Below, piece after piece: positions 11,976-34,228 of a DNA stretch of 64,000 bases; position 1 is the stretch's first letter, and each line of letters starts with the position of its first letter. The notes beneath the pieces were generated by a model, which saw only the letters and a list, made by a program, of their open reading frames with translations, did no database searches and was not told where the DNA came from. A program made the position numbers and the translations under genes. Origin of the DNA: a virus (Duplodnaviria; Heunggongvirae; Uroviricota; Caudoviricetes); the IMG/VR virus record IMGVR_UViG_2529292828_000009; one strand, given 5' to 3'.

Positions 11976-12893
11976 TTACAGGTAGTCAGCGACAACCAGT
12001 TGCAGCTTGCCCTTCATCTCGTTGGAGACGGTGGTATTGCCATCCGCGAACAGCTCACGGTTAAGCAGTTGCTCTGCGGCTTTTTCCAGCCCGACCGGTA
12101 CAACGATATGCGTCGGCTTCAGGCCCAGCTTCTTACCGCCATCACCTTCAAAAGATCGCATCAGTTGCCAGCCCTTCCAGAGGTTATCCAGCGTCAGATC
12201 GCCTTTTACCGCGACAGCCATCTGCCAGAAGCCGTAACCGGCAGCACGGCGGGCGCTGGCACCAAACAGGAACTCGTTATCCATAAAAACGTGGTCGTCA
12301 TCGATACGGGTACGTGCGACCAGTTCCGGTTTGCGGCGCTCCTGGAAAATCAGCGGTTTGACTGCGCGGGAGCAGTCCAGCAGATAGAACGGCAGACCGC
12401 TGAAGCTGTCCTGCTCAACGATGTTGGAGGTATTAACCGCGCTGCCCGTGCCGTCCACATTCGGATATACCGGATGCTCCTTGTCGAAGAAGTTCTGACC
12501 GTCATAGCACGGCTGGGTAAAGCCATCTTTCAGAAGTTTAAAAATCAGCTCATCCGGCTGAACTGCCGCAGAACGGCCCATCTCCTGAAAAATCGGCGCA
12601 TAAATACCCAGATTGTCATCCTCGAAGTCATCACGGGAAATACCCACGGTGCCTTCAAACGTTTTATTGGCGATGGAGTAGCCATGCGCTTCCATTTGCT
12701 GAATGGTTCGCTTACCCACCCATTCTTTCAGGGTCGGGAATTTACCCAGCCAGCCATAGGTATTACTGCGGGTGGAAGAGTTCACCACCATTGCAATTTT
12801 GCTGTACTGCGACGGGGCGTCTTCAAGACCGCCCTGAAAATCCTTACGCCAGGAGGTCATCAGGGCTTTAATGGATGCCGGGGGGACAATCAT
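11976..12893 (-). CDS. T: Major head subunit (Mu T/gp34-like)
   Basis: 305 aa ORF downstream of protease/scaffold gene. Confidence 0.85.
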   Translation of the reverse strand: MIVPPASIKALMTSWRKDFQGGLEDAPSQYSKIAMVVNSSTRSNTYGWLGKFPTLKEWVGKRTIQQMEAHGYSIANKTFEGTVGISRDDFEDDNLGIYAPIFQEMGRSAAVQPDELIFKLLKDGFTQPCYDGQNFFDKEHPVYPNVDGTGSAVNTSNIVEQDSFSGLPFYLLDCSRAVKPLIFQERRKPELVARTRIDDDHVFMDNEFLFGASARRAAGYGFWQMAVAVKGDLTLDNLWKGWQLMRSFEGDGGKKLGLKPTHIVVPVGLEKAAEQLLNRELFADGNTTVSNEMKGKLQLVVADYL

Positions 12894-13975
12894 TTTTCTT
12901 GTTCCTGTTTCATTTTCAGATACTCAGCCTCTGTAATGCCGAGCGCCTTCACTGCTGCCTGTTCATCAGCAGACAGCACCGCCACCGCCGTTTTTTCCTG
13001 CGACGGGATTTTCGCTGTGGTGGTCTGCATGGCAGATAACGCAGCGATAGGCTGTTTTTTCTCAAGCTGTGCCGACAGTGCCGCCACGCCAATCTGACCG
13101 CCAAGCTGTTCCAGATAGGTACGTTCGCTTTTGAAAATGCGGCCTTCCTGTTCCGCCTTGTCCAGAACGGCGCTCAGGCTGGCTGTGGCGCTTTGTGCAG
13201 TCGCCTGTGCCAGTTCATCACGCAGGGCGTTGTAGCTTTCCACCGGGACGTATTTCGTCAGGTCAACGGCGGCTTTCTGTGCCTTTTCCAGTTCGGCAGA
13301 CAACGCCGCCACTTTTCCGGCATCTGTTTCGAGCGCATCAAGCGCACTCAGGGCCGCGCTGGCCTGTTCATCGGTGATGTCTGCATTTTCGGGGACCGTC
13401 ACCCCAAGACGCGCAAGCAGCTTGCGCAGCGTTTCATTCATGGGTTTGTTCTCCTGTTGAAGGATGTCGGGAAGGTCTGCCGCCAGTGCGGTCAGCTTTT
13501 TCATGCCGGTGGCACCGGGGTCATTGGTCAGCGCAGCAAGGCGGATTTGCAGCACCGCACCGGTGGCGGTGTCATACGGAAAAACCGCAGAGAGATAACC
13601 AAATTCGCCGTCATCGATGCGCTGCTGTGCCGCCGCCGTCCAGCGTGGGTGGATAAATAATCCTTCACCTTCACGCCACTGCATTTCATCGGCGTTAAAC
13701 CAGCCAGCCGCGACGAGTTGTTCCGGGGGTAATCCTTTGTCCTTACGTAGCTGGTTATGCTCGTAATCAATCAGCACGTCCTGGTTGAGCGCGCGAACGC
13801 CTTCAACCAGACGCCCGGCAATCTCACCGTCGATGAACCACCCCTGACCACCTGTCACATCAAACGGACGACCATCACGGGCGCTGAAATGACCGGCAGG
13901 CAATAGCTGGCACCAGCCGTCATCGTCAATGGACAGCGCACTCAGTGCGGCAATGCCAATCGCGTGTTTTTTCAT
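12890..13975 (-). CDS. I: Head maturation protease/scaffold (Mu I/gp32-like)
   Basis: 361 aa ORF with Ala/Glu/Leu-rich coiled-coil C-terminal half. Confidence 0.8.
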   Translation of the reverse strand: MKKHAIGIAALSALSIDDDGWCQLLPAGHFSARDGRPFDVTGGQGWFIDGEIAGRLVEGVRALNQDVLIDYEHNQLRKDKGLPPEQLVAAGWFNADEMQWREGEGLFIHPRWTAAAQQRIDDGEFGYLSAVFPYDTATGAVLQIRLAALTNDPGATGMKKLTALAADLPDILQQENKPMNETLRKLLARLGVTVPENADITDEQASAALSALDALETDAGKVAALSAELEKAQKAAVDLTKYVPVESYNALRDELAQATAQSATASLSAVLDKAEQEGRIFKSERTYLEQLGGQIGVAALSAQLEKKQPIAALSAMQTTTAKIPSQEKTAVAVLSADEQAAVKALGITEAEYLKMKQEQEK

Positions 13976-14171
13976 GTCCTGCTGCTCATCATGGTTTGTG
14001 AGCAGTCAGTTTGCGGGAGGTGCGGGAAAATCTGGGGTTATGCTATTTGAGTACTGGAGAAAGAAAGTGGAAGGAAGATAAAACGGGATTCATACACCGT
14101 TAAATACCGGTTTAAAAATCCCGTGGCGCGTTTTAAAAAATCTGTGCGGCTGATTTTATGTCTGATTCCGT
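13976..14171. promoter_or_regulatory. G-I intergenic region; candidate location of the Mu central strong gyrase site
   Basis: Unusually long non-coding gap in an otherwise tightly packed late operon, near the middle of the Mu genome; assignment from literature position only. Confidence 0.35.
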
Positions 14172-14642
14172 TTATTTCCTCAGAGCGGCGCTGACGCGTT
14201 TTCTGATGGCATCAAAAATTTCCTGTTCCCCGGTCTTATCCAGCCCCATATAAGGACGCGCAGGAACGCCTGCCGGGCGGGGTGCCATATCGGGTGTACC
14301 GCCCCACTGATGAATGGCAGCATAAATTTTTGGCGAACCAATCAGGGCATAATCCTGTCCATAATCAGTGGTAATGCTGCGTGCCAGATCGCCATGCAGG
14401 GTAAGGATACTGCCCGGAACAAAACCATGATCCTGACGCCATGCCTGCCACGAATCGCTCCACGCTTCCCAGCCTTTCCCTGTATCCGGGTCTGCCTGCC
14501 GTTCAAATGCCTGTTCCGTGGATGACAGCAGCGCCGCAGCCATCACACGGGGAATGACGCGGTCACGTGTGACGGTTCCCAGTTCATCCAGCGCAAGCTG
14601 AATACGTCGCACATCCACGGCAACGTTCATATCAAGACTCAC
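14172..14642 (-). CDS. G: Virion morphogenesis protein (Mu G/gp31-like)
   Basis: 156 aa ORF downstream of F. Confidence 0.75.
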   Translation of the reverse strand: MSLDMNVAVDVRRIQLALDELGTVTRDRVIPRVMAAALLSSTEQAFERQADPDTGKGWEAWSDSWQAWRQDHGFVPGSILTLHGDLARSITTDYGQDYALIGSPKIYAAIHQWGGTPDMAPRPAGVPARPYMGLDKTGEQEIFDAIRKRVSAALRK

Positions 14643-15994
14643 TTATTCACCTCCACATGCCCCTCCAGTATGTCAATCATCCCGTCAGCAATCGCGGCTT
14701 CAAGCGACTGTGCAGATACGCGGCTGATACTGACCAGCACATCCGCCCGGTCATTCTGTTTGCTGACAGCCTGCGATGTTCTGACCACAACTTTTGCCGT
14801 GCCGTCGCGGGTTGCCACAACATACAGCAACTGGTGGTTCTCCCTGTCCCACAATACCGCCTGTGGTTTTGCCATCAGCGACGGCAGACGCTGTAAATCC
14901 TCCGGTTTCAGGGCGGCATCAGCAGTGGTCGCCAGACTTTTCCCGTTCATCACAAGCAGACGGGCTGGCATATTCCCGGTGCGCTGATATACGGCCTCCG
15001 CCACGGATCCCGTCATAAAACCCAGCGCACGGACCTCATGTCCGGCCCGGCGTGATTTCGCCAGACGTTTAAGCCAGAGGGAAAAAGCAAGCTGACGCTC
15101 CCGGCTGTTATTCAGCGTCTGAACAACCTGCTCACGCAGCTGCGCGTCACGAACTTCCACCAGTTTTCGAATCAGTGCCTGATCCGTACCAAATGCCGCC
15201 GAACCGGGGTTATATGACCAGCCCACATCTGGCGTCATTTTTACCCGACCGTTGTCAAACGTGGTTGACGATGTGCGGAAAATCTCTCCGGTGCTTTCAT
15301 CCGTACCGGCATCCACTTCGCGGGTATTCATGAATGACGCACCATAACTGATCTGTAGCCCCAGTTCTTTCATGCGGGCCGCAGACACCGCCCGGACGCG
15401 ACAGCGGCAGTTCCAGCCATTGGGCGGGGAATGCGTCTGCCAGAAAATGTCATCATACCGGAAAACCATATTGTGCAGCCGCGCATGTTCCGGGCGTGTT
15501 CTGCCATCCATAACGGCAACGTACTGCCAGTACGGGTACAAATCGGCGGTATTCATCATCTGCGCATAACGTCCTGCCCCATACGCCGTACGGGTATTGA
15601 CGTTATAAATGGTTGCCAGACGACGCGGACTGCCCAGCTCGATTACCTTTGCGTTTCCGTCTGCATCCACGATGATTTGTTTTCCCCACCATCCGAGTTT
15701 TTGCAGCCGGGGGGCCAGTGTGCGGGTAAATTCCTCACGGGTGATGCCTTCACTGACAGCCCGCTCCACTTCCTCACGGATTGTGGTCAGGACATCCATC
15801 CGGGTGGCTTTGGCAACGGTAAAGGCGCGGGCGTGCGCGTCTGCCAGTTGTTCGTACCAGTTCCAGGTGATGTTGTAGCCTTTGGCGCGGAAATACGCGA
15901 CAGCCTCCTTTGGCGGGAGGCGTGCGGCATACGCCAGATCAATGGTCTGCTGCGGCATCCAGACGCCCCCATATATCGGCAACAAAAATGGCAC
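14639..15994 (-). CDS. F: Head morphogenesis protein (Mu F/gp30-like)
   Basis: 451 aa ORF downstream of portal; true start probably internal. Confidence 0.8.
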   Translation of the reverse strand: MPFLLPIYGGVWMPQQTIDLAYAARLPPKEAVAYFRAKGYNITWNWYEQLADAHARAFTVAKATRMDVLTTIREEVERAVSEGITREEFTRTLAPRLQKLGWWGKQIIVDADGNAKVIELGSPRRLATIYNVNTRTAYGAGRYAQMMNTADLYPYWQYVAVMDGRTRPEHARLHNMVFRYDDIFWQTHSPPNGWNCRCRVRAVSAARMKELGLQISYGASFMNTREVDAGTDESTGEIFRTSSTTFDNGRVKMTPDVGWSYNPGSAAFGTDQALIRKLVEVRDAQLREQVVQTLNNSRERQLAFSLWLKRLAKSRRAGHEVRALGFMTGSVAEAVYQRTGNMPARLLVMNGKSLATTADAALKPEDLQRLPSLMAKPQAVLWDRENHQLLYVVATRDGTAKVVVRTSQAVSKQNDRADVLVSISRVSAQSLEAAIADGMIDILEGHVEVNK

Positions 15995-17477
15995 GGGTCA
16001 GCATGTCGATAAGTTCTGCATCATCCATCTGCGGATATAATGAAGCGGCTTTGTTCATGGCGGCTTCCGGGCCATCTTTCAGCACAGAAAAAATGACGGG
16101 TTTCAGCAGGGGATCAACCGAACGCTGCCAGTCTTCCGGTGAAACGCCCATCCGGTCGATATCATCCTCCTGCGGGATATCATCAGCGGATAATGCGGCT
16201 TCTTTCTGCGGACCGTTATCCATGACGACCGGTTGAGCAGTAAACACGGCTTCATCACCGACCGGCTGTGGAATATGGAGTTTTTCCTGTATCCATGAGA
16301 CCGGAATACGCATTCCCGCCGCCAGTTTCGGAATGGCGTCAGACAGTGCCGTAATATCACCCGCTTCACTGGTATCAAATACAATGCCCGGCAGGCGGTT
16401 AATATCAATGGTGCTGCCACTGTTCAGTGCCAGCAGGGGATAAATCAGATCACGGTTAATACTGCGGGCAAGCTGGCCCACATCCGCGTTACGGATTTCC
16501 CGGCGAACCTCATCATGCACTTCACCCAGCGACCGCGCGCCTTTATCGCCAGCCTCTGTGGTCAGGGTGCCGCCCAGAATAGCTTTTGAAATCGCTTTTT
16601 CTGCCCAGCCAATCATCGCCATAAAAGGGTCTGACTGACCATCTGCGGCGCTCTGAAAATCCAGCGTCATCCCCATCGGAATAATGCCACCGGCACGTCG
16701 CCCGATATCCATCACGGCCTGCATCAGCGTGGCTTTCTCGCGGTTCGTTGAGCCGGTCGGATATTTACCGACGCGCATGGGGAGTCCGTAAATTTCCAGG
16801 AACTCTGCAAAATCACGCACGGAATAGTTTTTAAAAATAAAAGGCCAGATAAGCGTGCGCACAAGACCATTGGTGCCGACATACCCGGTGCGGGATTTGG
16901 CCCGGTGCATAAACCAGCCGAACGGTTGCAGCTCCAGCCCGTGATAAGACGCATCACGCAGGCGTAATTCGTTCAGATTGTCGGGGTTCGCGCAGAACAG
17001 CGCCGGATCGCGATGATGCAGCGCCACCGGCACGCGCATTTTCCCAAGCCACCCCCATTCAATCTCCTGCATGGAATAGCCCTTGAGAATGGCATCACCG
17101 GCATCAAACAGGGCATCTTCAAACCACGCCGCATCATGCAGATATTCATTCAGTATGTCAGCGTCTTTTTTCTCCTGTGTGCTGGCATCACGTGCCGGAG
17201 CGATGCGCCATTCCAGCGCCTGAATGGCAAGGCGGCGTTTGCTCAGTTCGGAAAAAAGGTGGGTGTCCTTTTCTTCCATATCAAAGGCCAGGTCAGCCTG
17301 TGCTGTCAGATCACCGCGTTCGGCATCACGCAGCATCTGCGCGGCCCGGTTCGGCGTCACACCACTGGAAGGATGCTCCTGCGTACGCTTCATGACCATT
17401 GCCAGCTCATCGCTGCGGGTCTGCATTTCATCGTCAAAATCAAACGGCTGCCCGGAAATATCCAGAATACGGCCCAT
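15939..17477 (-). CDS. Portal protein (Mu gp29/H-like)
   Basis: 512 aa ORF immediately downstream of large terminase. Confidence 0.85.
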   Translation of the reverse strand: MGRILDISGQPFDFDDEMQTRSDELAMVMKRTQEHPSSGVTPNRAAQMLRDAERGDLTAQADLAFDMEEKDTHLFSELSKRRLAIQALEWRIAPARDASTQEKKDADILNEYLHDAAWFEDALFDAGDAILKGYSMQEIEWGWLGKMRVPVALHHRDPALFCANPDNLNELRLRDASYHGLELQPFGWFMHRAKSRTGYVGTNGLVRTLIWPFIFKNYSVRDFAEFLEIYGLPMRVGKYPTGSTNREKATLMQAVMDIGRRAGGIIPMGMTLDFQSAADGQSDPFMAMIGWAEKAISKAILGGTLTTEAGDKGARSLGEVHDEVRREIRNADVGQLARSINRDLIYPLLALNSGSTIDINRLPGIVFDTSEAGDITALSDAIPKLAAGMRIPVSWIQEKLHIPQPVGDEAVFTAQPVVMDNGPQKEAALSADDIPQEDDIDRMGVSPEDWQRSVDPLLKPVIFSVLKDGPEAAMNKAASLYPQMDDAELIDMLTRAIFVADIWGRLDAAADH

Positions 17478-19219
17478 TACCAGCCCCCTCGTTCAAACTG
17501 GTGATAATCATCAAAATCATCGTTATCAACACCATCACCACGGTGGCGTGGTGGCAGCGCCTGTATGCTGTCCTCGTCGATAACAAAACCATTCATATAA
17601 GACGCCCTGACAGCCATACAGAGCGCCACGGCAAAGTCGCCATGTCGTCGGCCTTTACCGCCTTCGTCTTTTGTGCGCCCCTTATCAATCTGCGGAATAC
17701 CTTTGTCCACCTTGATGTGGAGCAGGTCATCAAGTGTGGTCTGGTGCCGGGCAATCGTGATGTTCTGCGCTTCAAACTCGCCTTTCAGTTTGGGCATCCA
17801 CTCCTGATACCAGGATGCGGTCAGATTCACACAGTCGATCATCTCCGGGCCATAAATCAGACGGGCGGCTTCTGCCAGATAACCGCCGTTACCGGTGGCA
17901 TCAAATGCAGCGCCGGTAAAACGGGGCAAACGGGACAGAATGAATAAAAGGATTTGTCGCTGCTGGTCATAGGTCACATTACGCAGCTCCACGCGGAAAC
18001 ATTCGCGTTTGCGTAAGTCAGGCGTGATGGCAAGCGGCACAAACACCGTCAGGTCGCCACGGCGTGCAAAGTCTTCGCCCAGTACGTGTTTATTGAGCGG
18101 CGACAGCGCATCGAGCAACGGGAGCAGCTCCTGTTCACACCAGTCCTGAACGATGCCGTGGCGCATTTGTGGTGTCAGCGATTCAAAATCGTCCGGGGCT
18201 TCAAAACGCAGAATCGGGATATCCCGCGCTGGCGTCATGGCGGCTTCAATCAACACGCGTGACAGATAAGCGCCCCCGGATTTTTTGGGAATGCAGCCGT
18301 ATTCCTCGTCGGCACTCTCTTTATTCGGCGCATTCCGGTACAGGCCATCACGCCAGGCTTTTTCCGCTTCCGGCGACCACGGCTGATTCGTGACGTAACA
18401 GATACGTCGGTATAACCCGTCAGCGATGGCATCATCCAGCGTGATGCGGTGAACGCTGTAATCCTTGCGCCCCTCGCGCGCATCCTGAATGTACTGATTA
18501 AACAGATTATCGACGCCGTTATGTGTCGATATGATGCGCACGCTGGCACCCCACATGTTTAGTGCAAAGGCCGCTTTCAGCAGTTCGTCCAGGGCTTCAT
18601 GGAATGCCGCCTCATCAATCACCACGTCCCCCTGCAATCCACGCAGGTTAGACGGGCGGCTTGACAGAGCCTGTATCTTAAATCCGCTGTTCGGAAAGCG
18701 GATCATGTAGGTGAGGATTTCTTCTTTTTTGTCGCTGTCCCAGAAGGTCTGCTCCCAGACGTCAGCCTTTGCCAGTTGGTTAAAGGCACGGGCAAACAGG
18801 GCACAGGCGGCGATGTATTCCAGCGCCATTTCCTGACGGGAACCCACATAAAAGACGTTGCGACCACCGCGACGCTTCGGCTTTGCGGCCGTCATGACAT
18901 TGCGGCCCGCTTCAGCCCATGTCAGACCGGTACGACGGGATTTTTCAGCGATGCAAATCTGGCTTTCATCCTCAAACCAGCGCCGCTGATAGCCCAGAAA
19001 AACCGGTTCATTGCGGGGCTGTGCTTCCCCGATATCGGTCACGATATTCACGCCGAGCAGTCCGGCTTCCTCACGCAGGTTGATTTTGCGGGGGGCATGA
19101 AGGGCTTTAAGGTTGTTTTCTCTGGTGTTCATAACCCTCTCATGCCTTACCCAGCAGTACATCACGGATACGCTGCTCCAGCTCTTCGCTGATGCCATCC
19201 TGCCCGCGCAGTTCTTCAC
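17477..19219 (-). CDS. Terminase large subunit (Mu gp28-like); true start probably at internal Met30
   Basis: 580 aa ORF preceding portal; N-terminus overlaps small terminase gene in another frame. Confidence 0.85.
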   Translation of the reverse strand: MKNCAGRMASAKSWSSVSVMYCWVRHERVMNTRENNLKALHAPRKINLREEAGLLGVNIVTDIGEAQPRNEPVFLGYQRRWFEDESQICIAEKSRRTGLTWAEAGRNVMTAAKPKRRGGRNVFYVGSRQEMALEYIAACALFARAFNQLAKADVWEQTFWDSDKKEEILTYMIRFPNSGFKIQALSSRPSNLRGLQGDVVIDEAAFHEALDELLKAAFALNMWGASVRIISTHNGVDNLFNQYIQDAREGRKDYSVHRITLDDAIADGLYRRICYVTNQPWSPEAEKAWRDGLYRNAPNKESADEEYGCIPKKSGGAYLSRVLIEAAMTPARDIPILRFEAPDDFESLTPQMRHGIVQDWCEQELLPLLDALSPLNKHVLGEDFARRGDLTVFVPLAITPDLRKRECFRVELRNVTYDQQRQILLFILSRLPRFTGAAFDATGNGGYLAEAARLIYGPEMIDCVNLTASWYQEWMPKLKGEFEAQNITIARHQTTLDDLLHIKVDKGIPQIDKGRTKDEGGKGRRHGDFAVALCMAVRASYMNGFVIDEDSIQALPPRHRGDGVDNDDFDDYHQFERGGW

Positions 19220-19730
19220 TCACGGCGTTTGCCGCTTCTTCTGCGAATGCCTGGCGGATTTCTTTCTCGCGCCGGTGGCTGGACATTGCCGTGGATTCCA
19301 GACGCTGTGCCGCCAGCATGGCATTTTTCAGCAGGTCAATATCCACGTCAGATTCCGGGGTTTCGATTTGCCGCATCATGGCCTTAAAAAGCTGGCTGCG
19401 GGCCATTTCCAGAATCAGCTTTGTGGTTTCTCCCATTGGCTTGTCGCCAAGTTCTGCGGTCAGTGCTGACGTCATTTCACGCATCTGTCGCAGGTTATGG
19501 CCTACCTGCTCGACGTTCGTCGCGTAACGGTTCAGACCGGAACGGGAGAGTTTCATCTCATCCGGCAGGCCAGCGTCTTCAATCAGTACGTTAATTTCTT
19601 CCAGAATGCGGGCCTGTGGGATCGCTTTATCACGCAGCATTTCATGCAGCGTTTTACGTACGTTTTCCGGCAGTAAATCCACTTTTGAAGCCCGGCCCCG
19701 TGTTTTCCTGTCCATCACGCCTCCTGTCAT
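19140..19730 (-). CDS. Terminase small subunit (Mu gp27-like)
   Basis: 196 aa ORF directly upstream of large terminase. Confidence 0.7.
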   Translation of the reverse strand: MTGGVMDRKTRGRASKVDLLPENVRKTLHEMLRDKAIPQARILEEINVLIEDAGLPDEMKLSRSGLNRYATNVEQVGHNLRQMREMTSALTAELGDKPMGETTKLILEMARSQLFKAMMRQIETPESDVDIDLLKNAMLAAQRLESTAMSSHRREKEIRQAFAEEAANAVSEELRGQDGISEELEQRIRDVLLGKA

Positions 19731-20017
19731 GCACGGGGACGAGGACGCTTGACACCGGCAACGCGGGCACGACCTTCTGCCACATCCTGACCTCGGGAGG
19801 TCAGCGTTACGACATAAAAGCCGCGCAGGTTTTCCACGGTGACCAGTTGCTGCTCTGCCAGCCAGTCAATCTGGCCGCGAACCACATCGCGGGAAACGTT
19901 GTGTCCGTATGCATCCAGACAGTCCTGAAGGATGGATTCGTTTGCTTCGTTATTGCAGTCCATCAGGGAACGCAGGATGACCAGACGACGGTCTTCGGTC
20001 AGAATATCGTTAATCAT
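19727..20017 (-). CDS. Mu gp26-like hypothetical protein
   Basis: 96 aa ORF with 4-nt overlaps to neighbours. Confidence 0.45.
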   Translation of the reverse strand: MINDILTEDRRLVILRSLMDCNNEANESILQDCLDAYGHNVSRDVVRGQIDWLAEQQLVTVENLRGFYVVTLTSRGQDVAEGRARVAGVKRPRPRA

Positions 20018-20331
20018 GAATTACTCCGGTTTACTGCGTTTTCAAGCAGCAGCTCCAGTTGATGGGAAAATGACTGCACCCGCTGGGACAGCACCCGGAT
20101 ATCGCCGGACAGCTCTGCAATTCGCAGGCGCATTTCGTGTACATCTTCTGTGCCAGGGATGCTGGCGTAGCGGGTTTCCATTTCGGTCATCCGGTTTTCA
20201 AGACGCTCCACACGCTCAGTGCTGGCAAAACTACGACGCATTGCCCAGACGGCCCCACCGGCCACAACAGGCAACAGGTAAGGCCATAACGCTAAAACTG
20301 AAATCAAATCCATTATTCTGCTCCACGGCAC
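20014..20331 (-). CDS. Mu gp25-like small membrane protein (possible lysis-associated)
   Basis: 105 aa ORF, N-terminal hydrophobic segment then coiled-coil-like region. Confidence 0.45.
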   Translation of the reverse strand: MPWSRIMDLISVLALWPYLLPVVAGGAVWAMRRSFASTERVERLENRMTEMETRYASIPGTEDVHEMRLRIAELSGDIRVLSQRVQSFSHQLELLLENAVNRSNS

Positions 20332-20507
20332 CAGTGGCAGTAGTTCGCCATCGGCTGCTGTCTCAGCACATCAGGCCGCAGCTCACGACCGCAACCGGCA
20401 CACAATACAGGCGGGTCATACGCCGCCGGGCGGGGAATATCACGGGTATCCCCCTGCCAGAGTTCAGCGAGCAGCAGCGCCACCGCCCGGTTCTGGTCTT
20501 CGTTCAT
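20313..20507 (-). CDS. Small Cys-rich (zinc-ribbon-like) protein
   Basis: 64 aa ORF with CxxC...CxxC pattern. Confidence 0.4.
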   Translation of the reverse strand: MNEDQNRAVALLLAELWQGDTRDIPRPAAYDPPVLCAGCGRELRPDVLRQQPMANYCHWCRGAE

Positions 20508-20805
20508 AAATTTCTTTCCTTCGGGTCTCCTGTTCCCGGACTGATGCCTTGTCGCGGTTGCACTGCCCGAGCGCCATCAACAGGTCAGCATTCCAGAGAA
20601 GGGATGCTCCCCACGTCAGGGGCTGTGGCATGGGCGGAACGGGCGTTGCTTCCGTCAGTTCTGCATCAGTTTCGGGCAGGATCACCACCGATGGCACGGG
20701 TGCGTTTTTCGAGTTCCCGCAACCTGTCAGCAGCAACGGCAGGCACAGGACGAGTGCTGCAATTGTCACCGGTAATGGCGGGTGTAATTTTTTGTTTTGC
20801 ATCAT
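20464..20805 (-). CDS. Putative o-spanin lipoprotein (start at internal Met of ORF 20464..21012)
   Basis: Lipoprotein signal with lipobox LLTGC, Pro-rich body; overlaps i-spanin gene in a different frame. Confidence 0.5.
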   Translation of the reverse strand: MMQNKKLHPPLPVTIAALVLCLPLLLTGCGNSKNAPVPSVVILPETDAELTEATPVPPMPQPLTWGASLLWNADLLMALGQCNRDKASVREQETRRKEIYERRPEPGGGAAAR

Positions 20806-21052
20806 GATGTTCTGTCTCATCTGCCAGCCGCGCGGCACGATTTGCGGCACGGATAGCGGAAAATACCTGCATCGTCTGTTCCTGACCGTGTAACAACCAT
20901 TCAGCCGTGTTGCGGGCCTGTTGCTCCGTCTGTAATTCACGGCGCAGCGTCTGGTTATCGTGGCGGGTGCTGTCCAGCCTGTGCCACAACACCCCGGACA
21001 GAACGGCGGCAAACACGGCTGCCAGCAGTAAACTTTTACTGGCGAAGGTCAT
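20666..21052 (-). CDS. Putative i-spanin (Rz-like)
   Basis: 128 aa, N-terminal TM helix then coiled-coil-like region, directly downstream of endolysin. Confidence 0.55.
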   Translation of the reverse strand: MTFASKSLLLAAVFAAVLSGVLWHRLDSTRHDNQTLRRELQTEQQARNTAEWLLHGQEQTMQVFSAIRAANRAARLADETEHHDAKQKITPAITGDNCSTRPVPAVAADRLRELEKRTRAIGGDPARN

Positions 21053-21554
21053 CCGCCCCCCTGATATTCCAGATAGCCATTTCCACTTCGCGACGGTTCA
21101 TCAGTCCTTTCCATTTATGGCCTGCGGCAAACACCCAGCGGGCCATCTGGTCACGCGCTCCGGCGTAATCACCGGCATTGAGTTTTTTCAGCAGCGTTGA
21201 TTTACTGAATGCGGTAACACCGGTGTTGAAAATAAACGTTGCCAGCGCCGTTTTCTGATATGGCGTCAGCGGCACCCTGACAAGACGATCGATTGCCGCA
21301 TAAACCGGTTTTAAATCACTGTCGAGGAGAGCCATACACTCCGCATGGCTGTAACGGCGCATTTCGATATCCGGCCCGGTATGCCCCACACAGACCGAAA
21401 GCACACCGCCAATATCGCGGTAAGGCATATAAGCGATATTTTCCAGGTGGATCAGAGACTGACGGGTCATTTCCTGATAACCACCCACACCGCCACCGGC
21501 AATCGTTACAGCCAGCAGTGTGGCTTTCAGTTTTTTTGGTATCCCCGCCATCAT
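21036..21554 (-). CDS. lys: SAR-type endolysin (T4-lysozyme-like)
   Basis: N-terminal weakly hydrophobic Gly/Ala-rich anchor followed by E...D...T catalytic triad pattern; Mu lys position. Confidence 0.8.
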   Translation of the reverse strand: MMAGIPKKLKATLLAVTIAGGGVGGYQEMTRQSLIHLENIAYMPYRDIGGVLSVCVGHTGPDIEMRRYSHAECMALLDSDLKPVYAAIDRLVRVPLTPYQKTALATFIFNTGVTAFSKSTLLKKLNAGDYAGARDQMARWVFAAGHKWKGLMNRREVEMAIWNIRGADDLRQ

Positions 21555-21645
21555 GCTTCCCTGAAAAAATGCTCTGATGGCAGTCTAAAAAATCAGGTGG
21601 CAGGTGCGGGATTATGGTGACAGGAAATAACCGGCAGGATGCCGG

Positions 21646-22068
21646 TTATTTTGGGCTTTCAGGTGAGAACAGATCAGGCTGATGACGTCGTGTATGCAGC
21701 TTTCTCTGGCGGGCAATAATCTGGTAGATCTGCGGCTGGGACAGGCGGGACTGGCGACGCAGTTCTTCCATGTTACGACCATTAAACTGGCAGTAAAGCA
21801 AATCGTCGCGTAACGCGGTCAGGATCGTATCGCCGCAGGGGATGTAAAACTGCCGTCCACCCAGAAAACAGGACAGGGCAACGGCCTGTTTACGGGCAAG
21901 TTCACGGGGATTGCTGACGTTCTGGCGTTTCAGTTCGTTTTCCAGAACATCAATCAGATCAACCACCGAACGGGGCCAGCGTGATTCCAGTTCCGGGGCC
22001 GGGATGTTATCAATATGTCCGATTAACTGGCGAATTGCCGGATCGTGTTCAAATAAATCATGCTGCAT
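21646..22068 (-). CDS. C: Late transcription activator (Mu C, Mor/C family)
   Basis: 140 aa ORF paralogous to the Mor-like ORF at 23047..23436; lies just upstream of the lysis/late genes. Confidence 0.75.
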   Translation of the reverse strand: MQHDLFEHDPAIRQLIGHIDNIPAPELESRWPRSVVDLIDVLENELKRQNVSNPRELARKQAVALSCFLGGRQFYIPCGDTILTALRDDLLYCQFNGRNMEELRRQSRLSQPQIYQIIARQRKLHTRRHQPDLFSPESPK

Positions 22069-22180
22069 ATTTTCCCCCGGTTAACAGACAGAAAGATACA
22101 CCACGGCACTGATGGTTATCAGAACCACAAGGGCAATCACTTTTATCGCACTCATCAGCGTGGACGGCCCGAAACATTCA

Positions 22181-31591: not shown

Positions 31592-34228
31592 TTAACGACA
31601 TTCAGCTGATAGCTGGGTTAATAACTGCTGCTGACTCTCTGGTGGCAGTTGATAATTGGCGACACAGTGAGCATTTTCCTCTTCTCCCCATTTCACCTGA
31701 ACTTTTCCCGCTAAAGGCATTCCGCTGAGGTAAACCTGACCATTATCCGCAACAATGCCGCTACTCTGGCTACTCTCTGATGTCACCATCGCCCCAAACG
31801 GCAGCGGCTTATTATTGTGGGTTAGCGTCATGAGCAGTTTTATCCCAACGCGCGCTTTAAACTCTGCTCGCACGATCGCCCCACGAGTGGGAACAACGTT
31901 AGCGACCGCGTTATCTAAATCGACGTTATCAGCCAGGGTATTGGTATCCAGCGCCACTCTATTTTCCCGATATTCAGTGGCATAAGGCAGCACGGCATAA
32001 CCACGCCAGTCGGTACGCACCCCCGTCTGGTTTTCGACTTTTGCATCTTTTGCGCCAGGCGCTTTAACAAGCACCACTGTTTCGTTTAACGGCTGCCCCA
32101 GCGTTACGCCATTGGCATGAGCCAATACCCCACCGCTGACTCCGTAATAGAGCTGCTTAATATCATCGCTATGGCTGTAACCGATATTGGCATTGCCGTA
32201 ACCACCGCGATAATTCAGCGTGGCGTAGCCTGTACTTCCGCTATTACCATCACCTCCCCCGGCATAGCCGGTTTGCACGCTATAGCTGAGGTTGTTGTCT
32301 TCCAGCAACGTACCGTATACACCAGCCAGATTGGTCATCCGACCGTTGAGATCGTGTGACATGCTGTAGCTGGCACTGGCATGTCGCCACTGAGATTTAC
32401 TGTCAGAACGCAGCCAGTGGCTGAAAGGAATATTGACGTTAAGCGCTAACATCTGATCCCGTCCTTTTTGCCAGGCGTTTTTCGTCAGGCTATAGCTGAG
32501 CGTCCAGTTGATATCTTCGAATGCAGTATTTAAACCAGCCTGGAATTGCTCATCGACATTACTCGTTCCCCAATAAGTTTGATGGCTACCACTCAAATAC
32601 AGTGTTGATGTGCGCCCGAGTTGCTGAGTAACGGTGAGCTGTAATTTCCCGCGTTTGTTATAAGCGAGGTTGTAATAGTCGGTGAATTTCGGCTTAACCT
32701 GAATAACTCCGTCCTGTGTTTCGATGTTGTAGCCATTCATTCGACTGTATGTTGTATCAGCGAAATTAAAATATCCGCTGGTCGAATAACGGTAACCCAC
32801 TAACTGAATATTCGTGCCTGACTCATTGAGCGATTTGTTATAGAGAAAACGCACCGATTGTCCGTCATGCTGACTGTCATCGGGAAGTGTGGAATTAGCC
32901 TGCGTCATATCCACAGACAGAGCGCCCAATGCCCCCATGTTTTTCCCGATACCGAAATTAAAAGCACGATAACGATCCGCCAGTTGCGTTCCACCATATA
33001 TTGTCCAGCCAGCCGGAAGGCCGTGGAGTAATGTACTCTGGAAAAAGCGGGGTTTTTCCTGCTGCGCATTTCCACTACGGTATTCTCCTGCCGTAATGGA
33101 ATAACGAGTATGCCCTTCACGTTGCAAAAGCGGGACTGACGAATAGGGTACGGTAAAAATCTGCGTGCTGCCGTCAGCCTCTTTGATCGTTACCTGCAAG
33201 TCACCACTATTACCTGCGGCATAGATATCGTTGATGGTAAAAGGCCCCGGTGGCACCGTACTATTATAAATGTCATACCCATTTTGTTTAATAGTGACCT
33301 GTGCAGTACCACGAGCAATACCGTGGATCACCGGGGCAAATCCTCTTTGGCTATCGGGTAACATATTGTCATCTGAGGCCAATTGTGCGCCGCGAAAGTT
33401 AATACCATCGAAAATATCGCCCTGAGTATAACCATCACCCAGCGTCAGCCGGGAACGTAACGGTATTATGTCTCGCTCAAGCCAGGTATTGATATGCTGC
33501 CATTTATTTTTGCTACCTGATGATCTGTCGCTACTGTTATAACTCCAGCTGGTATTGTCGCGTAAACGCCACGCACCAATATTTAACCCACTCTGTAGGT
33601 TTAAATATGCATAATGGTTGTTACCCCCAATCCGATTCTGTACACTATTTCCGCTGAAATTATAATTGAGCAATCCGGCATTAATACCGGGATCCCATAA
33701 CTCAGGAGGAATATAACCACGCGCGCGATTACTCATAAATGCCTGAGGGATCGTCAGGTTGAGTCGCTGCTGACCAACATCTAAATGCGCAGTAGCGTCA
33801 TGGATCATGGAGGTTAATGGCACGCAGGCATCATCCGCCAGCAGATTCATACCGGAGACAGAAGCCGTATTCAGCCCCATACTGGCAAGTTGCGCGCGTG
33901 TCAGGCAGGGAACAATCCCTTGTTCGCTGTCGCCCGTATTAAATGTGACATCACGCGTTGCCATATAACCATTATTCAAATAGATATCGACACGATACGT
34001 CCCTGGCGGTAATTCTTGCCCATTTTCAAAACGCGATAAATCAGCCACAGCCTGGGGATCATCCGCTAAAAAGCGCGGATTAAAATAGAGTTCGGCAGAT
34101 GACAAAGGTGTCTGTGCGGCAAAAGCACAGGCGACAAAGAGCCGGACAAAAAAACCAGCCAAACGATGCTTACGAATATGCAAGCATTGTGTGTTTCGCT
34201 GGTAAAGTCTTAAATTCAGATATGACAT
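31592..34228 (-). CDS. fimD: Type 1 fimbrial outer-membrane usher FimD
   Basis: 878 aa ORF, fim operon order. Confidence 0.95.
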   Translation of the reverse strand: MSYLNLRLYQRNTQCLHIRKHRLAGFFVRLFVACAFAAQTPLSSAELYFNPRFLADDPQAVADLSRFENGQELPPGTYRVDIYLNNGYMATRDVTFNTGDSEQGIVPCLTRAQLASMGLNTASVSGMNLLADDACVPLTSMIHDATAHLDVGQQRLNLTIPQAFMSNRARGYIPPELWDPGINAGLLNYNFSGNSVQNRIGGNNHYAYLNLQSGLNIGAWRLRDNTSWSYNSSDRSSGSKNKWQHINTWLERDIIPLRSRLTLGDGYTQGDIFDGINFRGAQLASDDNMLPDSQRGFAPVIHGIARGTAQVTIKQNGYDIYNSTVPPGPFTINDIYAAGNSGDLQVTIKEADGSTQIFTVPYSSVPLLQREGHTRYSITAGEYRSGNAQQEKPRFFQSTLLHGLPAGWTIYGGTQLADRYRAFNFGIGKNMGALGALSVDMTQANSTLPDDSQHDGQSVRFLYNKSLNESGTNIQLVGYRYSTSGYFNFADTTYSRMNGYNIETQDGVIQVKPKFTDYYNLAYNKRGKLQLTVTQQLGRTSTLYLSGSHQTYWGTSNVDEQFQAGLNTAFEDINWTLSYSLTKNAWQKGRDQMLALNVNIPFSHWLRSDSKSQWRHASASYSMSHDLNGRMTNLAGVYGTLLEDNNLSYSVQTGYAGGGDGNSGSTGYATLNYRGGYGNANIGYSHSDDIKQLYYGVSGGVLAHANGVTLGQPLNETVVLVKAPGAKDAKVENQTGVRTDWRGYAVLPYATEYRENRVALDTNTLADNVDLDNAVANVVPTRGAIVRAEFKARVGIKLLMTLTHNNKPLPFGAMVTSESSQSSGIVADNGQVYLSGMPLAGKVQVKWGEEENAHCVANYQLPPESQQQLLTQLSAECR

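What the first reader, a model, noticed from the sequence alone, without database searches (positions are those of the whole stretch)
13976..14171. Long intergenic gap in the Mu late operon, candidate strong gyrase site
Mu late genes are otherwise overlapping or abutting, but ~196 bp of non-coding DNA separate G and I near the centre of the prophage. Mu is known to carry a central strong gyrase-binding site needed for efficient replicative transposition; this gap is the likely location.
Basis: established knowledge. Interest (0 to 1): 0.2.

Follow-up and report, generated by a model that had tools for sequence, protein, structure and literature searches.

The report
Phage Mu strong gyrase site
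The 196-bp gap between the G and I genes of this Mu-like prophage holds the well-known Mu strong gyrase site, a predicted terminator and the I late promoter, so it is a known feature correctly spotted, not a new one.

Summary
On the minus strand, G ends at 14172 and I starts at 13975, leaving exactly 196 bp with no credible ORF. This is the largest true non-coding gap in the prophage's late region. The interval is 193/196 identical to phage Mu 17860-18055. Both Mu GenBank records annotate a gyrase cut site at 17879/17880, which is window 14152|14151. The cut-site sequence published with the cryo-EM structure (5'-T/GATTT) is present unchanged. The right arm, which the literature calls essential, is identical to Mu over its essential 40 bp. 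The three substitutions near the cut all lie on the G side, and two of them are shared with viable phages. The roughly 150-bp site (about 14069-14218) fills only the G-proximal half of the gap and runs 47 bp into G. The rest of the gap holds a terminator-like hairpin, which overlaps the right arm, and the C-dependent late promoter PI, which is 67/67 identical to Mu. G and I thus belong to different late transcription units. Central position cannot be checked in the window because the right prophage end is missing; a full-length relative has the site at 48.7%. Already known; low interest.

The parts
14069..14218 (.). Strong gyrase site (SGS), about 150 bp. The left arm and left half of the core lie toward G (higher coordinates); the right arm lies toward I (lower coordinates).
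   Evidence: Extent taken from the published anatomy (40-bp left arm, 50-bp core, 60-bp right arm, footprint +26..+85; PMC6463007) and placed on the cut site annotated in NC_000929/AF083977. The 133-bp Mu SGS fragment used for Topo-Seq equals window 14087..14219 with 4 mismatches, one of which is the nuB103 allele of the fragment itself.
14152..14155 (.). Gyrase cleavage stagger (GATT on the + strand). The + strand is cut at 14151|14152 and the - strand at 14155|14156.
   Evidence: Mu 'gyrase cut site' 17879/17880. The cryo-EM paper gives 5'-T/GATTT-3' and A/A on the other strand (PMC11626157). The window reads ...gcggcT|GATT|ttat. Cleavage in this prophage is inferred, not measured.
14069..14128 (.). 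SGS right arm (+26..+85), with phased A/T tracts. The first 40 bp (14089-14128) are reported as essential.
   Evidence: Identical to Mu except 14070 (Mu 17961 T>C, the majority state among relatives). Only 2 of 60 positions vary among 25 close relatives. Role from PMC10052514, PMC6463007 and PMC13284261.
14074..14124 (-). Terminator-like hairpin (stem 14083-14124) plus U-rich tract (14074-14082) at the end of the lys-G transcription unit. It overlaps the SGS right arm.
   Evidence: RNA fold -19.8 kcal/mol, z = -3.0. TransTermHP terminator annotated at the same place in AF083977 (17908-17953). The simple terminator scan did not call it. Function is predicted only.
13988..14054 (-). Late promoter PI (C-dependent). 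C-binding dyad about 14037-14052, -10 hexamer CAAACT at 14008-14013, start of transcription about 13999-14001.
   Evidence: 67/67 identical to the Mu feature 17977-18043 'late promoter, PMID 2522923'. It shares CATAACCCC and the -10 position with Plys, PP and Pmom. There is no sigma-70 -35/-10 consensus match, as expected for an activator-dependent promoter. C site centred at -43.5 per PMC2582627. Sub-coordinates are inferred from the ungapped alignment.
13976..13987 (-). Ribosome-binding region of gene I.
   Evidence: Mu annotation places the RBS at 18044-18046, which is window 13985-13987. Identical sequence.
14172..14642 (-). Gene G (virion morphogenesis / neck protein). Its last 47 bp form the SGS left arm and the outer edge of the core.
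   Evidence: Pfam PF05069, E = 4e-42. 98.1% identical to Mu G. The last codon is Q>K relative to all 24 relatives.
12890..13975 (-). Gene I (head protease / scaffold), the first gene of the PI transcription unit.
   Evidence: Pfam PF10123, E = 9e-98. 98.3% identical to Mu I.

Best explanation
The gap is the composite G-I inter-operon region of a Mu-type transposable prophage. Its G-proximal half, together with the last 47 bp of G, is the Mu strong gyrase site. Host DNA gyrase binds there, cleaves with a 4-bp stagger at 14151|14152 (+ strand) and 14155|14156 (- strand), and wraps the A/T-phased right arm (14069-14128) around a GyrA C-terminal domain. This gives unusually processive supercoiling. 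A plectonemic loop growing from this near-central site aligns the two prophage arms and brings the left and right ends together. That speeds transpososome assembly and replicative transposition after induction, and it helps keep the prophage as a separate supercoiled domain. The same DNA carries a terminator-like hairpin for the lys-G late transcript. The I-proximal 67 bp are the C-activated late promoter PI that drives I, T and downstream head genes. Shown here: sequence identity, position and conservation. Taken from the literature on Mu: gyrase binding, cleavage position, right-arm requirement and the end-synapsis role. Inferred: that this prophage's allele behaves like Mu's.
For: The gap is 193/196 identical to Mu 17860-18055 and has the same length. 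NC_000929 and AF083977 annotate the gyrase cut site at 17879/17880, which is window 14152|14151. The cut-site sequence T/GATTT reported in the cryo-EM structure is present. The 133-bp Mu SGS fragment validated by Topo-Seq and gel shift matches window 14087-14219; only 3 of the differences are real, all on the G side at 14161, 14169 and 14177. The G and A at 14169 and 14161 also occur in the isolated phage vB_YpM_Tongde, and the A at 14161 also in D108. An IMG/VR contig has the whole gap identical. The right arm is invariant with respect to Mu over its essential 40 bp and nearly invariant in 25 relatives. The review of the Pato/Higgins work states that the nu mutations mapped near G and I, that SGS deletion delays replication by about 100 min, that the left arm is dispensable and that the right arm is essential (PMC10052514). 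Saha et al. show that the SGS is needed for end proximity in the prophage (PMC3820752). A full-length relative whose G-I gap is identical to the window's has the site at 48.7% of its length, as in Mu. PI is 67/67 identical to Mu and shares the late-promoter motif. The hairpin has z = -3.0.
Against: No biochemical or in vivo data exist for this particular prophage. The right end is not in the window, so centrality is extrapolated. Relative to Mu, the left arm is about 560 bp shorter, which would put the site at about 47-48% if the missing right part is Mu-like. Simple sequence-only measures do not single the site out: S/W match to the published gyrase consensus ranks 3200 of 63,868 positions, and A/T periodicity of the right arm is at the 71st-99th percentile depending on the frame. 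The call therefore rests on homology to a mapped site. The terminator is only predicted, and the tool's simple scan missed it. Three substitutions lie in the left half of the 50-bp core, where an effect on strength cannot be excluded.
Confidence: 0.93

Rival explanations
1. The gap is only an operon boundary (terminator of the lys-G transcript plus the PI promoter). The gyrase site in this prophage is non-functional or much weakened by its substitutions near the cut.
For: The terminator-like hairpin and PI together span about 120 of the 196 bp. Three substitutions fall at -8, -16 and -24 from the cleavage centre. The core around the cut is the most variable part of the gap among relatives.
Against: The alleles at -8 and -16 occur in isolated, plaque-forming phages (-8 in D108 and vB_YpM_Tongde, -16 in vB_YpM_Tongde), while the -24 change is unique to this prophage. 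The 4-bp stagger, the nuB103 position (wild type) and the essential right arm are unchanged. The literature reports that left-side changes have little effect on cleavage (PMC10052514).
Confidence: 0.04
2. The gap encodes a small protein, as annotated in phage D108 ('gene 31.5', 42 aa), or on the opposite strand as in Mu_3F6.
For: GQ357916 annotates a CDS at the position equivalent to window 14038-14166 on the minus strand. LR595867 annotates a 46-aa ORF on the other strand overlapping the end of G.
Against: The D108 CDS and its window equivalent begin with ATC (Ile). No ATG, GTG or TTG ORF of 20 aa or more exists on that strand. The ORF lies across the mapped gyrase core and the terminator hairpin. 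Mu's curated re-annotation has no gene there.
Confidence: 0.02
3. The gap encodes a structured non-coding RNA.
For: There is one stable hairpin.
Against: No Rfam match at E <= 1. Folding of the whole gap is no better than shuffles (z = -0.8). The hairpin is followed by a U tract, as in a terminator. In the SE11-type relative a different hairpin ends at the same U-rich tract, which fits a terminator rather than a conserved RNA.
Confidence: 0.01

Closest known systems
[quoted passage not shown] 2006)
   Same: Same genes on either side and same 196-bp gap length. 193/196 identical in the gap. Identical cut-site sequence, identical essential right arm, and the wild-type base at the nuB103 position.
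   Different: Three substitutions left of the cut (Mu 17870 G>A, 17862 A>G, 17854 C>A) and one at the far end of the right-arm footprint (17961 T>C). The site is 17,320 rather than 17,879 bp from the left end, because early-region content differs.
SGS alleles of D108, SfMu, vB_YpM_Tongde and E. coli Mu-like prophages
   Same: The window's gap is identical to those of E. coli Z0117EC0098, MIN10 and IMG/VR contig L020. It shares the 17862/17870 states with vB_YpM_Tongde.
   Different: The only singleton is the Q>K change in the last codon of G (14177).
SE11-type Mu-like prophage G-I region
   Same: Same gene order and a 201-bp gap. ATAAAATCA is retained at the cut site, T-tracts are at the same positions in the right arm, and the PI motif GATAACCCC is retained.
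   Different: Only 64% identical across the gap and 52% in the right arm. The terminator hairpin is built from different bases. Gyrase-site activity of this variant was not found in the papers read.
Strong gyrase sites of pSC101 and pBR322; BIME/REP gyrase sites
   Same: Preferred gyrase binding and cleavage sites with a 4-bp stagger and flanking wrapped arms (PMC6379681).
   Different: No sequence relationship to these sites. According to the review, they could not replace the Mu site in promoting Mu replication (PMC10052514).

Membership tests
Mu strong gyrase site (SGS) | Sequence homologous to the experimentally mapped Mu cleavage site and core | tested here: met
   Cut site annotated at Mu 17879/17880 equals window 14152|14151. 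T|GATT|T is present. The 50-bp core differs from Mu at 3 positions, all left of the cut.
Mu strong gyrase site (SGS) | Right arm (+26..+85) with phased A/T tracts; the first 40 bp are essential | tested here: met
   Window 14089-14128 is identical to Mu. 14069-14128 has one difference (14070), which is the majority state in relatives. Definition from PMC6463007.
Mu strong gyrase site (SGS) | Location between genes G and I of a Mu-type transposable phage | tested here: met
   Pfam and tblastn identify G and I. The whole 31.5-kb prophage part is collinear with Mu at 93-98% identity.
Mu strong gyrase site (SGS) | Central position between the two prophage ends | tested here: inconclusive
   The left end is at 31471, so the left arm is 17,320 bp. 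The right end is outside the window. A full-length relative has the site at 48.7%.
Mu strong gyrase site (SGS) | High score with the Topo-Seq gyrase position-weight matrix | not tested
   The matrix (Table DS10) is cut from the stored supplement. A crude S/W match to the published consensus and a periodicity scan were uninformative.
Mu strong gyrase site (SGS) | Strong gyrase binding and quinolone-induced cleavage; processive supercoiling | not testable with these tools
   Needs biochemistry or Topo-Seq.
Mu strong gyrase site (SGS) | Required for a normal rate of replicative transposition after induction | not testable with these tools
   Needs a deletion in the lysogen and induction kinetics.
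Mu C-dependent late promoter (PI) | -10 hexamer without a -35 hexamer; C-binding dyad centred near -43.5; conserved CATAACCCC motif | tested here: met
   67/67 identical to Mu PI. The motif and -10 position are shared with Plys, PP and Pmom. There is no sigma-70 consensus hit.
Mu C-dependent late promoter (PI) | Activator C encoded by the same element | tested here: met
   C homologue at window 21646-22068, 98.6% identical to Mu C.
Intrinsic (Rho-independent) terminator | GC-containing hairpin followed directly by a U tract, downstream of a stop codon | tested here: inconclusive
   Hairpin of -19.8 kcal/mol with z = -3.0, followed by UUUUAUCUU, and TransTermHP calls it in Mu. The stem is interrupted, and the simple scan found nothing.

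The most novel reading that the evidence does not exclude
Among 25 close relatives, natural variation in the G-I gap is concentrated in the 26 bp that include the cleavage site (8 of 26 positions variable, against 6 of 170 elsewhere in the gap), while the right arm is almost frozen. The laboratory nuB mutations that strengthen the site also lie next to the cut. The natural core haplotypes, including the one in this window, could therefore be strength-tuning alleles adapted to different host gyrases or prophage sizes, rather than neutral drift in an unconstrained stretch.
Probability: 0.2. Interest if true: 0.35.

Novelty: already known. Interest (0 to 1): 0.1.

Why it matters
It matters little as a discovery. 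The Mu strong gyrase site has been studied since 1990, is annotated in the Mu reference records, and is the standard substrate for gyrase single-molecule and cryo-EM work. The useful outcome is a precise, base-level annotation of this prophage's G-I region: cut site, arms, terminator and PI promoter. It also corrects two points: the site extends into G, and the gap is an operon boundary. A modest by-product is the pattern of natural variation, with a hypervariable core and an invariant right arm. This pattern agrees with the published deletion analysis and could guide a choice of natural alleles to test for gyrase strength.

Tried and rejected
(1) I scored the site against the published 133-bp gyrase consensus reduced to G/C versus A/T. 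The SGS register ranks only 3200 of 63,868 positions. An off-by-one in register was corrected. The real position-weight matrix was not available.

(2) I ran a Fourier scan for 9.5-12 bp A/T periodicity over the prophage. The right arm is not an outlier, at the 71st-78th percentile in the fixed frame and the 99th at best.

(3) The simple promoter and terminator scans found nothing in 13700-14450. This is expected for an activator-dependent promoter and a long-loop hairpin.

(4) An Rfam search of the region gave no match.

(5) The D108 'gene 31.5' was checked and rejected because it has no start codon.

(6) An exact-pattern scan of genome contigs with the I-start 24-mer found nothing. The same pattern in viral contigs gave 17 loci.

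(7) The primary papers (Pato 1990; Oram & Pato 2004; Oram 2006) are not held in the library. The extents of the arms are therefore taken from open-access reviews.

(8) I first thought the SE11-type relative had lost the terminator hairpin. Folding showed a different hairpin ending at the same U-rich tract.

Full report
**Observation.** All prophage genes around the finding are on the minus strand. G (156 aa; Pfam Phage_tail_S, E = 4e-42) occupies 14172..14642. I (361 aa; Pfam Mu-like_Pro, E = 9e-98) occupies 12890..13975. No ORF of 20 aa or more lies on the coding strand inside it, and it has no Rfam match. I mapped every Mu protein onto the window. The 196 bp proved to be the largest real non-coding gap in the late region; the next are 94 bp (C-lys) and 66 bp (T-gp35). 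The 144-bp gp41-gp42 gap is covered in Mu by the frameshifted chaperone product, and a 635-bp 'gap' after mor contains a foreign ORF.

**What the window is.** Window 1..31471 is a Mu-type prophage in reverse orientation, collinear with phage Mu at 93-98% identity. The left (repressor) end is the canonical TGTATTGATTCACTTGAAGTACGAA, at 31471. Beyond it lies E. coli fimD/fimF. Window position 1 corresponds to Mu 31987, about 21 bp inside the invertible G segment. The right end, gin and mom are therefore not in the window.

**Identity of the gap.** The 751 bp around the gap match 13 phage records at 98.7-98.8% (Mu, D108, SfMu, Mu_3F6, PhiR68_1 and five Yersinia Mu-like phages). The same region occurs in 41 of 5,426 complete E. 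coli genomes at 97.6% identity or more, and in three more at 71.5%. Both Mu records (NC_000929, AF083977) carry a misc_feature 'gyrase cut site' at 17879/17880, 20 bp past the G stop. With the conversion Mu = 32031 - window position, this is window 14152|14151.

The cryo-EM study of gyrase on the 217-bp Mu fragment describes the scissile bonds as 5'-T/GATTT-3' on one strand and A/A on the other (PMC11626157). The window + strand reads gcggcT|GATT|ttat. This places the cuts at 14151|14152 (+ strand) and 14155|14156 (- strand), with a 4-nt stagger.

The 133-bp 'Mu SGS' fragment used by Sutormin et al. for gel shifts and Topo-Seq validation equals window 14087..14219 with four mismatches (PMC6379681 supplement). 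One mismatch (14150) is a change in the fragment itself relative to wild-type Mu. The source plasmid carries the nuB103 allele (PMC6463007), and the window has the wild-type base there. The other three (14161, 14169, 14177; Mu 17870 G>A, 17862 A>G, 17854 C>A) all lie on the G side of the cut. Within the gap the window differs from Mu at only three positions: those at 14161 and 14169, plus 14070 (Mu 17961 T>C).

**Anatomy.** Rovinskiy et al. summarise the site as 150 bp: a 40-bp left arm, a 50-bp core and a 60-bp right arm. The right-arm footprint runs from +26 to +85, and its first 40 nt are essential (PMC6463007). Placed on the cut site, this gives window 14069..14218. The right arm is 14069-14128 (essential part 14089-14128), the core is 14129-14178, and the left arm is 14179-14218. 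So 103 bp of the site lie in the gap and 47 bp lie inside the 3' end of G. The essential part of the right arm is identical to Mu.

[quoted passage not shown] The 2026 deformability study repeats this (PMC13284261).

**The rest of the gap.** AF083977 annotates a TransTermHP terminator at 17908-17953 and the late promoter PI at 17977-18043. In the window the transcript strand folds into a hairpin (stem 14083-14124; -19.8 kcal/mol; z = -3.0 against shuffles) followed by UUUUAUCUU (14074-14082). This hairpin lies entirely within the SGS right arm, so the same DNA appears to serve both roles. The terminator is a prediction only, and the simple scan did not call it.

The PI feature (window 13988-14054) is 67/67 identical to Mu. 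[quoted passage not shown] Jiang and Howe state that the late promoters have -10 but no -35 hexamers and that C binds a 16-bp dyad centred at -43.5 (PMC2582627). This places the C site at about 14037-14052 and the -10 at 14008-14013; both placements are inferred. The activator C is encoded in the prophage and is 98.6% identical to Mu C. G and I therefore belong to different late transcription units, and the gap is an operon boundary as well as the gyrase site.

**Mechanism (from the literature, inferred for this prophage).**
- The nu mutants that allowed Mu to grow on a gyrB host mapped near G and I.
- Quinolone-induced cleavage gave a single strong site, with efficiency nuB > nuA > wild type.
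- Deleting the site delayed replication by about 100 min.
- The block was at transpososome assembly, and the central position was optimal (PMC10052514).
- Saha et al. found the site necessary for keeping the two prophage ends close even in the lysogen: deletion reduced loxP recombination across Mu 30-fold, and displacement reduced it 3-7-fold (PMC3820752).
- The cryo-EM structure shows the right arm chirally wrapped on one GyrA C-terminal domain, presenting the T-segment (PMC11626157).

The most likely function here is thus the same: processive supercoiling from a near-central site extrudes a plectonemic loop, which aligns the arms and promotes synapsis of the ends.

**Centrality.** The cut is 17,320 bp from the left end, against 17,879 bp in Mu. 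The difference comes from the early region, which lacks gp13/gp14/gp54 and has a replacement near gp18/gp19. The right side is 14,151 bp up to the window edge plus an unknown remainder. With a Mu-like remainder of 4.7 kb, the site would lie at about 48%. The full-length prophage in E. coli Z0117EC0098 has a G-I gap identical to the window's (the compared stretch differs only at the last codon of G). That prophage is 37,150 bp with the cut 18,088 bp from the left end, or 48.7%, the same fraction as Mu.

**Variation.** I compared 25 close relatives (15 distinct sequences): 9 from annotated phage and E. coli records, 15 IMG/VR contigs retrieved with a 24-mer at the start of I, and the window itself.
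- The variable positions in the gap cluster in the 26 bp next to the G stop, which include the cleavage site: 8 of 26 positions vary, against 6 of 170 elsewhere in the gap. Fisher's exact test gives p = 6e-5, but the boundary was chosen after looking, so this is only indicative.
- The right arm has 2 variable positions in 60.
- The window's states at 14169 and 14161 are shared with the isolated phage vB_YpM_Tongde, and the state at 14161 also with D108. IMG/VR contig L020 and two E. coli prophages have the whole gap identical.
- The only singleton is 14177, a Q>K change in the last codon of G.
- In the divergent SE11-type prophage the gap is 64% identical and the right arm 52%. ATAAAATCA at the cut site, the T-tract positions of the right arm and the PI motif are retained, and a different hairpin ends at the same U-rich tract.

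**What did not help.** Sequence-only measures do not single the site out. The G/C-versus-A/T match to the published gyrase consensus ranks the site 3200 of 63,868 positions. The A/T periodicity of the right arm is unremarkable. The published position-weight matrix, under which the Mu site is the top hit in the Mu genome (PMC6379681), was not available in the stored supplement. The identification therefore rests on near-identity to an experimentally mapped site, not on de novo prediction.

**Rivals.**
- A small protein in the gap, annotated as D108 'gene 31.5', is rejected. It begins with ATC in both D108 and the window.
- A structured RNA is unsupported.
- 'Only an operon boundary, with a dead gyrase site' is unlikely. 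The cut site, the nuB position and the essential right arm are unchanged, and two of the three substitutions near the cut occur in viable phages.

**Verdict.** The feature is already known and is annotated in the reference Mu genome. Interest is low. The refinements are the exact coordinates, the extension of the site into G, and the co-resident terminator and PI promoter. The variation pattern is a minor lead.

Noticed in passing
window 31471-33800: The prophage left end (TGTATTGATTCACTTGAAGTACGAA, reverse-complemented) sits at 31471 and abuts E. coli fimD followed by fimF, so the Mu-like prophage interrupts the type 1 fimbrial usher gene. None of the 5,426 complete E. coli genomes searched carries this junction.
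   Followed up: partly
window 1-30: The window starts at Mu coordinate 31987, about 21 bp inside the invertible G segment (boundary at Mu 31966). The rest of the tail-fibre S gene, the remainder of the G segment, gin, com/mom and the right end are missing from the window. The 5-bp target duplication and the true prophage length cannot be checked.
   Followed up: partly
window 22404-22964 (-): A 186-aa ORF with Glyco_hydro_108 and PG_binding_3 domains sits between mor and the gp18/gp20 homologues, where Mu has gp18/gp19. This is a second putative muramidase in addition to the Mu endolysin (lys homologue at 21036-21551).
   Followed up: partly
window 23985-24035: Mu genes gp13, gp14 and gp54 (Mu 7432-8164) have no counterpart, and gp12 is shortened. 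Together with the replacement near gp18/gp19 this makes the left arm about 560 bp shorter than in Mu.
   Followed up: no
L004 (D108 GQ357916) 639-767; equivalent to window 14038-14166 (-): D108 'gene 31.5: putative phage protein' starts with ATC and lies over the gyrase-site core and right arm. It looks like an annotation artefact. Mu_3F6 (LR595867) likewise annotates a 46-aa antisense ORF overlapping the end of G.
   Followed up: yes
window 14146-14171 versus the rest of the gap; alignment A2: Across 25 close relatives the cleavage-site neighbourhood is the most polymorphic part of the G-I gap (8 of 26 positions), while the right arm is nearly invariant (2 of 60). The boundary was chosen after looking.
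   Followed up: partly
L007 (E. coli SE11, NC_011415) 594-794: A divergent Mu-like prophage has a 201-bp G-I gap only 64% identical to the window's. It keeps ATAAAATCA at the cut position, the T-tract positions of the right arm and the PI GATAACCCC motif. It uses a different hairpin ahead of the same U-rich tract.
   Followed up: partly
window 8809-10542 (-): The gp38 and L (tail sheath) homologues are clearly more diverged from Mu (77% and 90% amino-acid identity) than their neighbours (95-100%), which suggests a mosaic exchange in the tail module.
   Followed up: no
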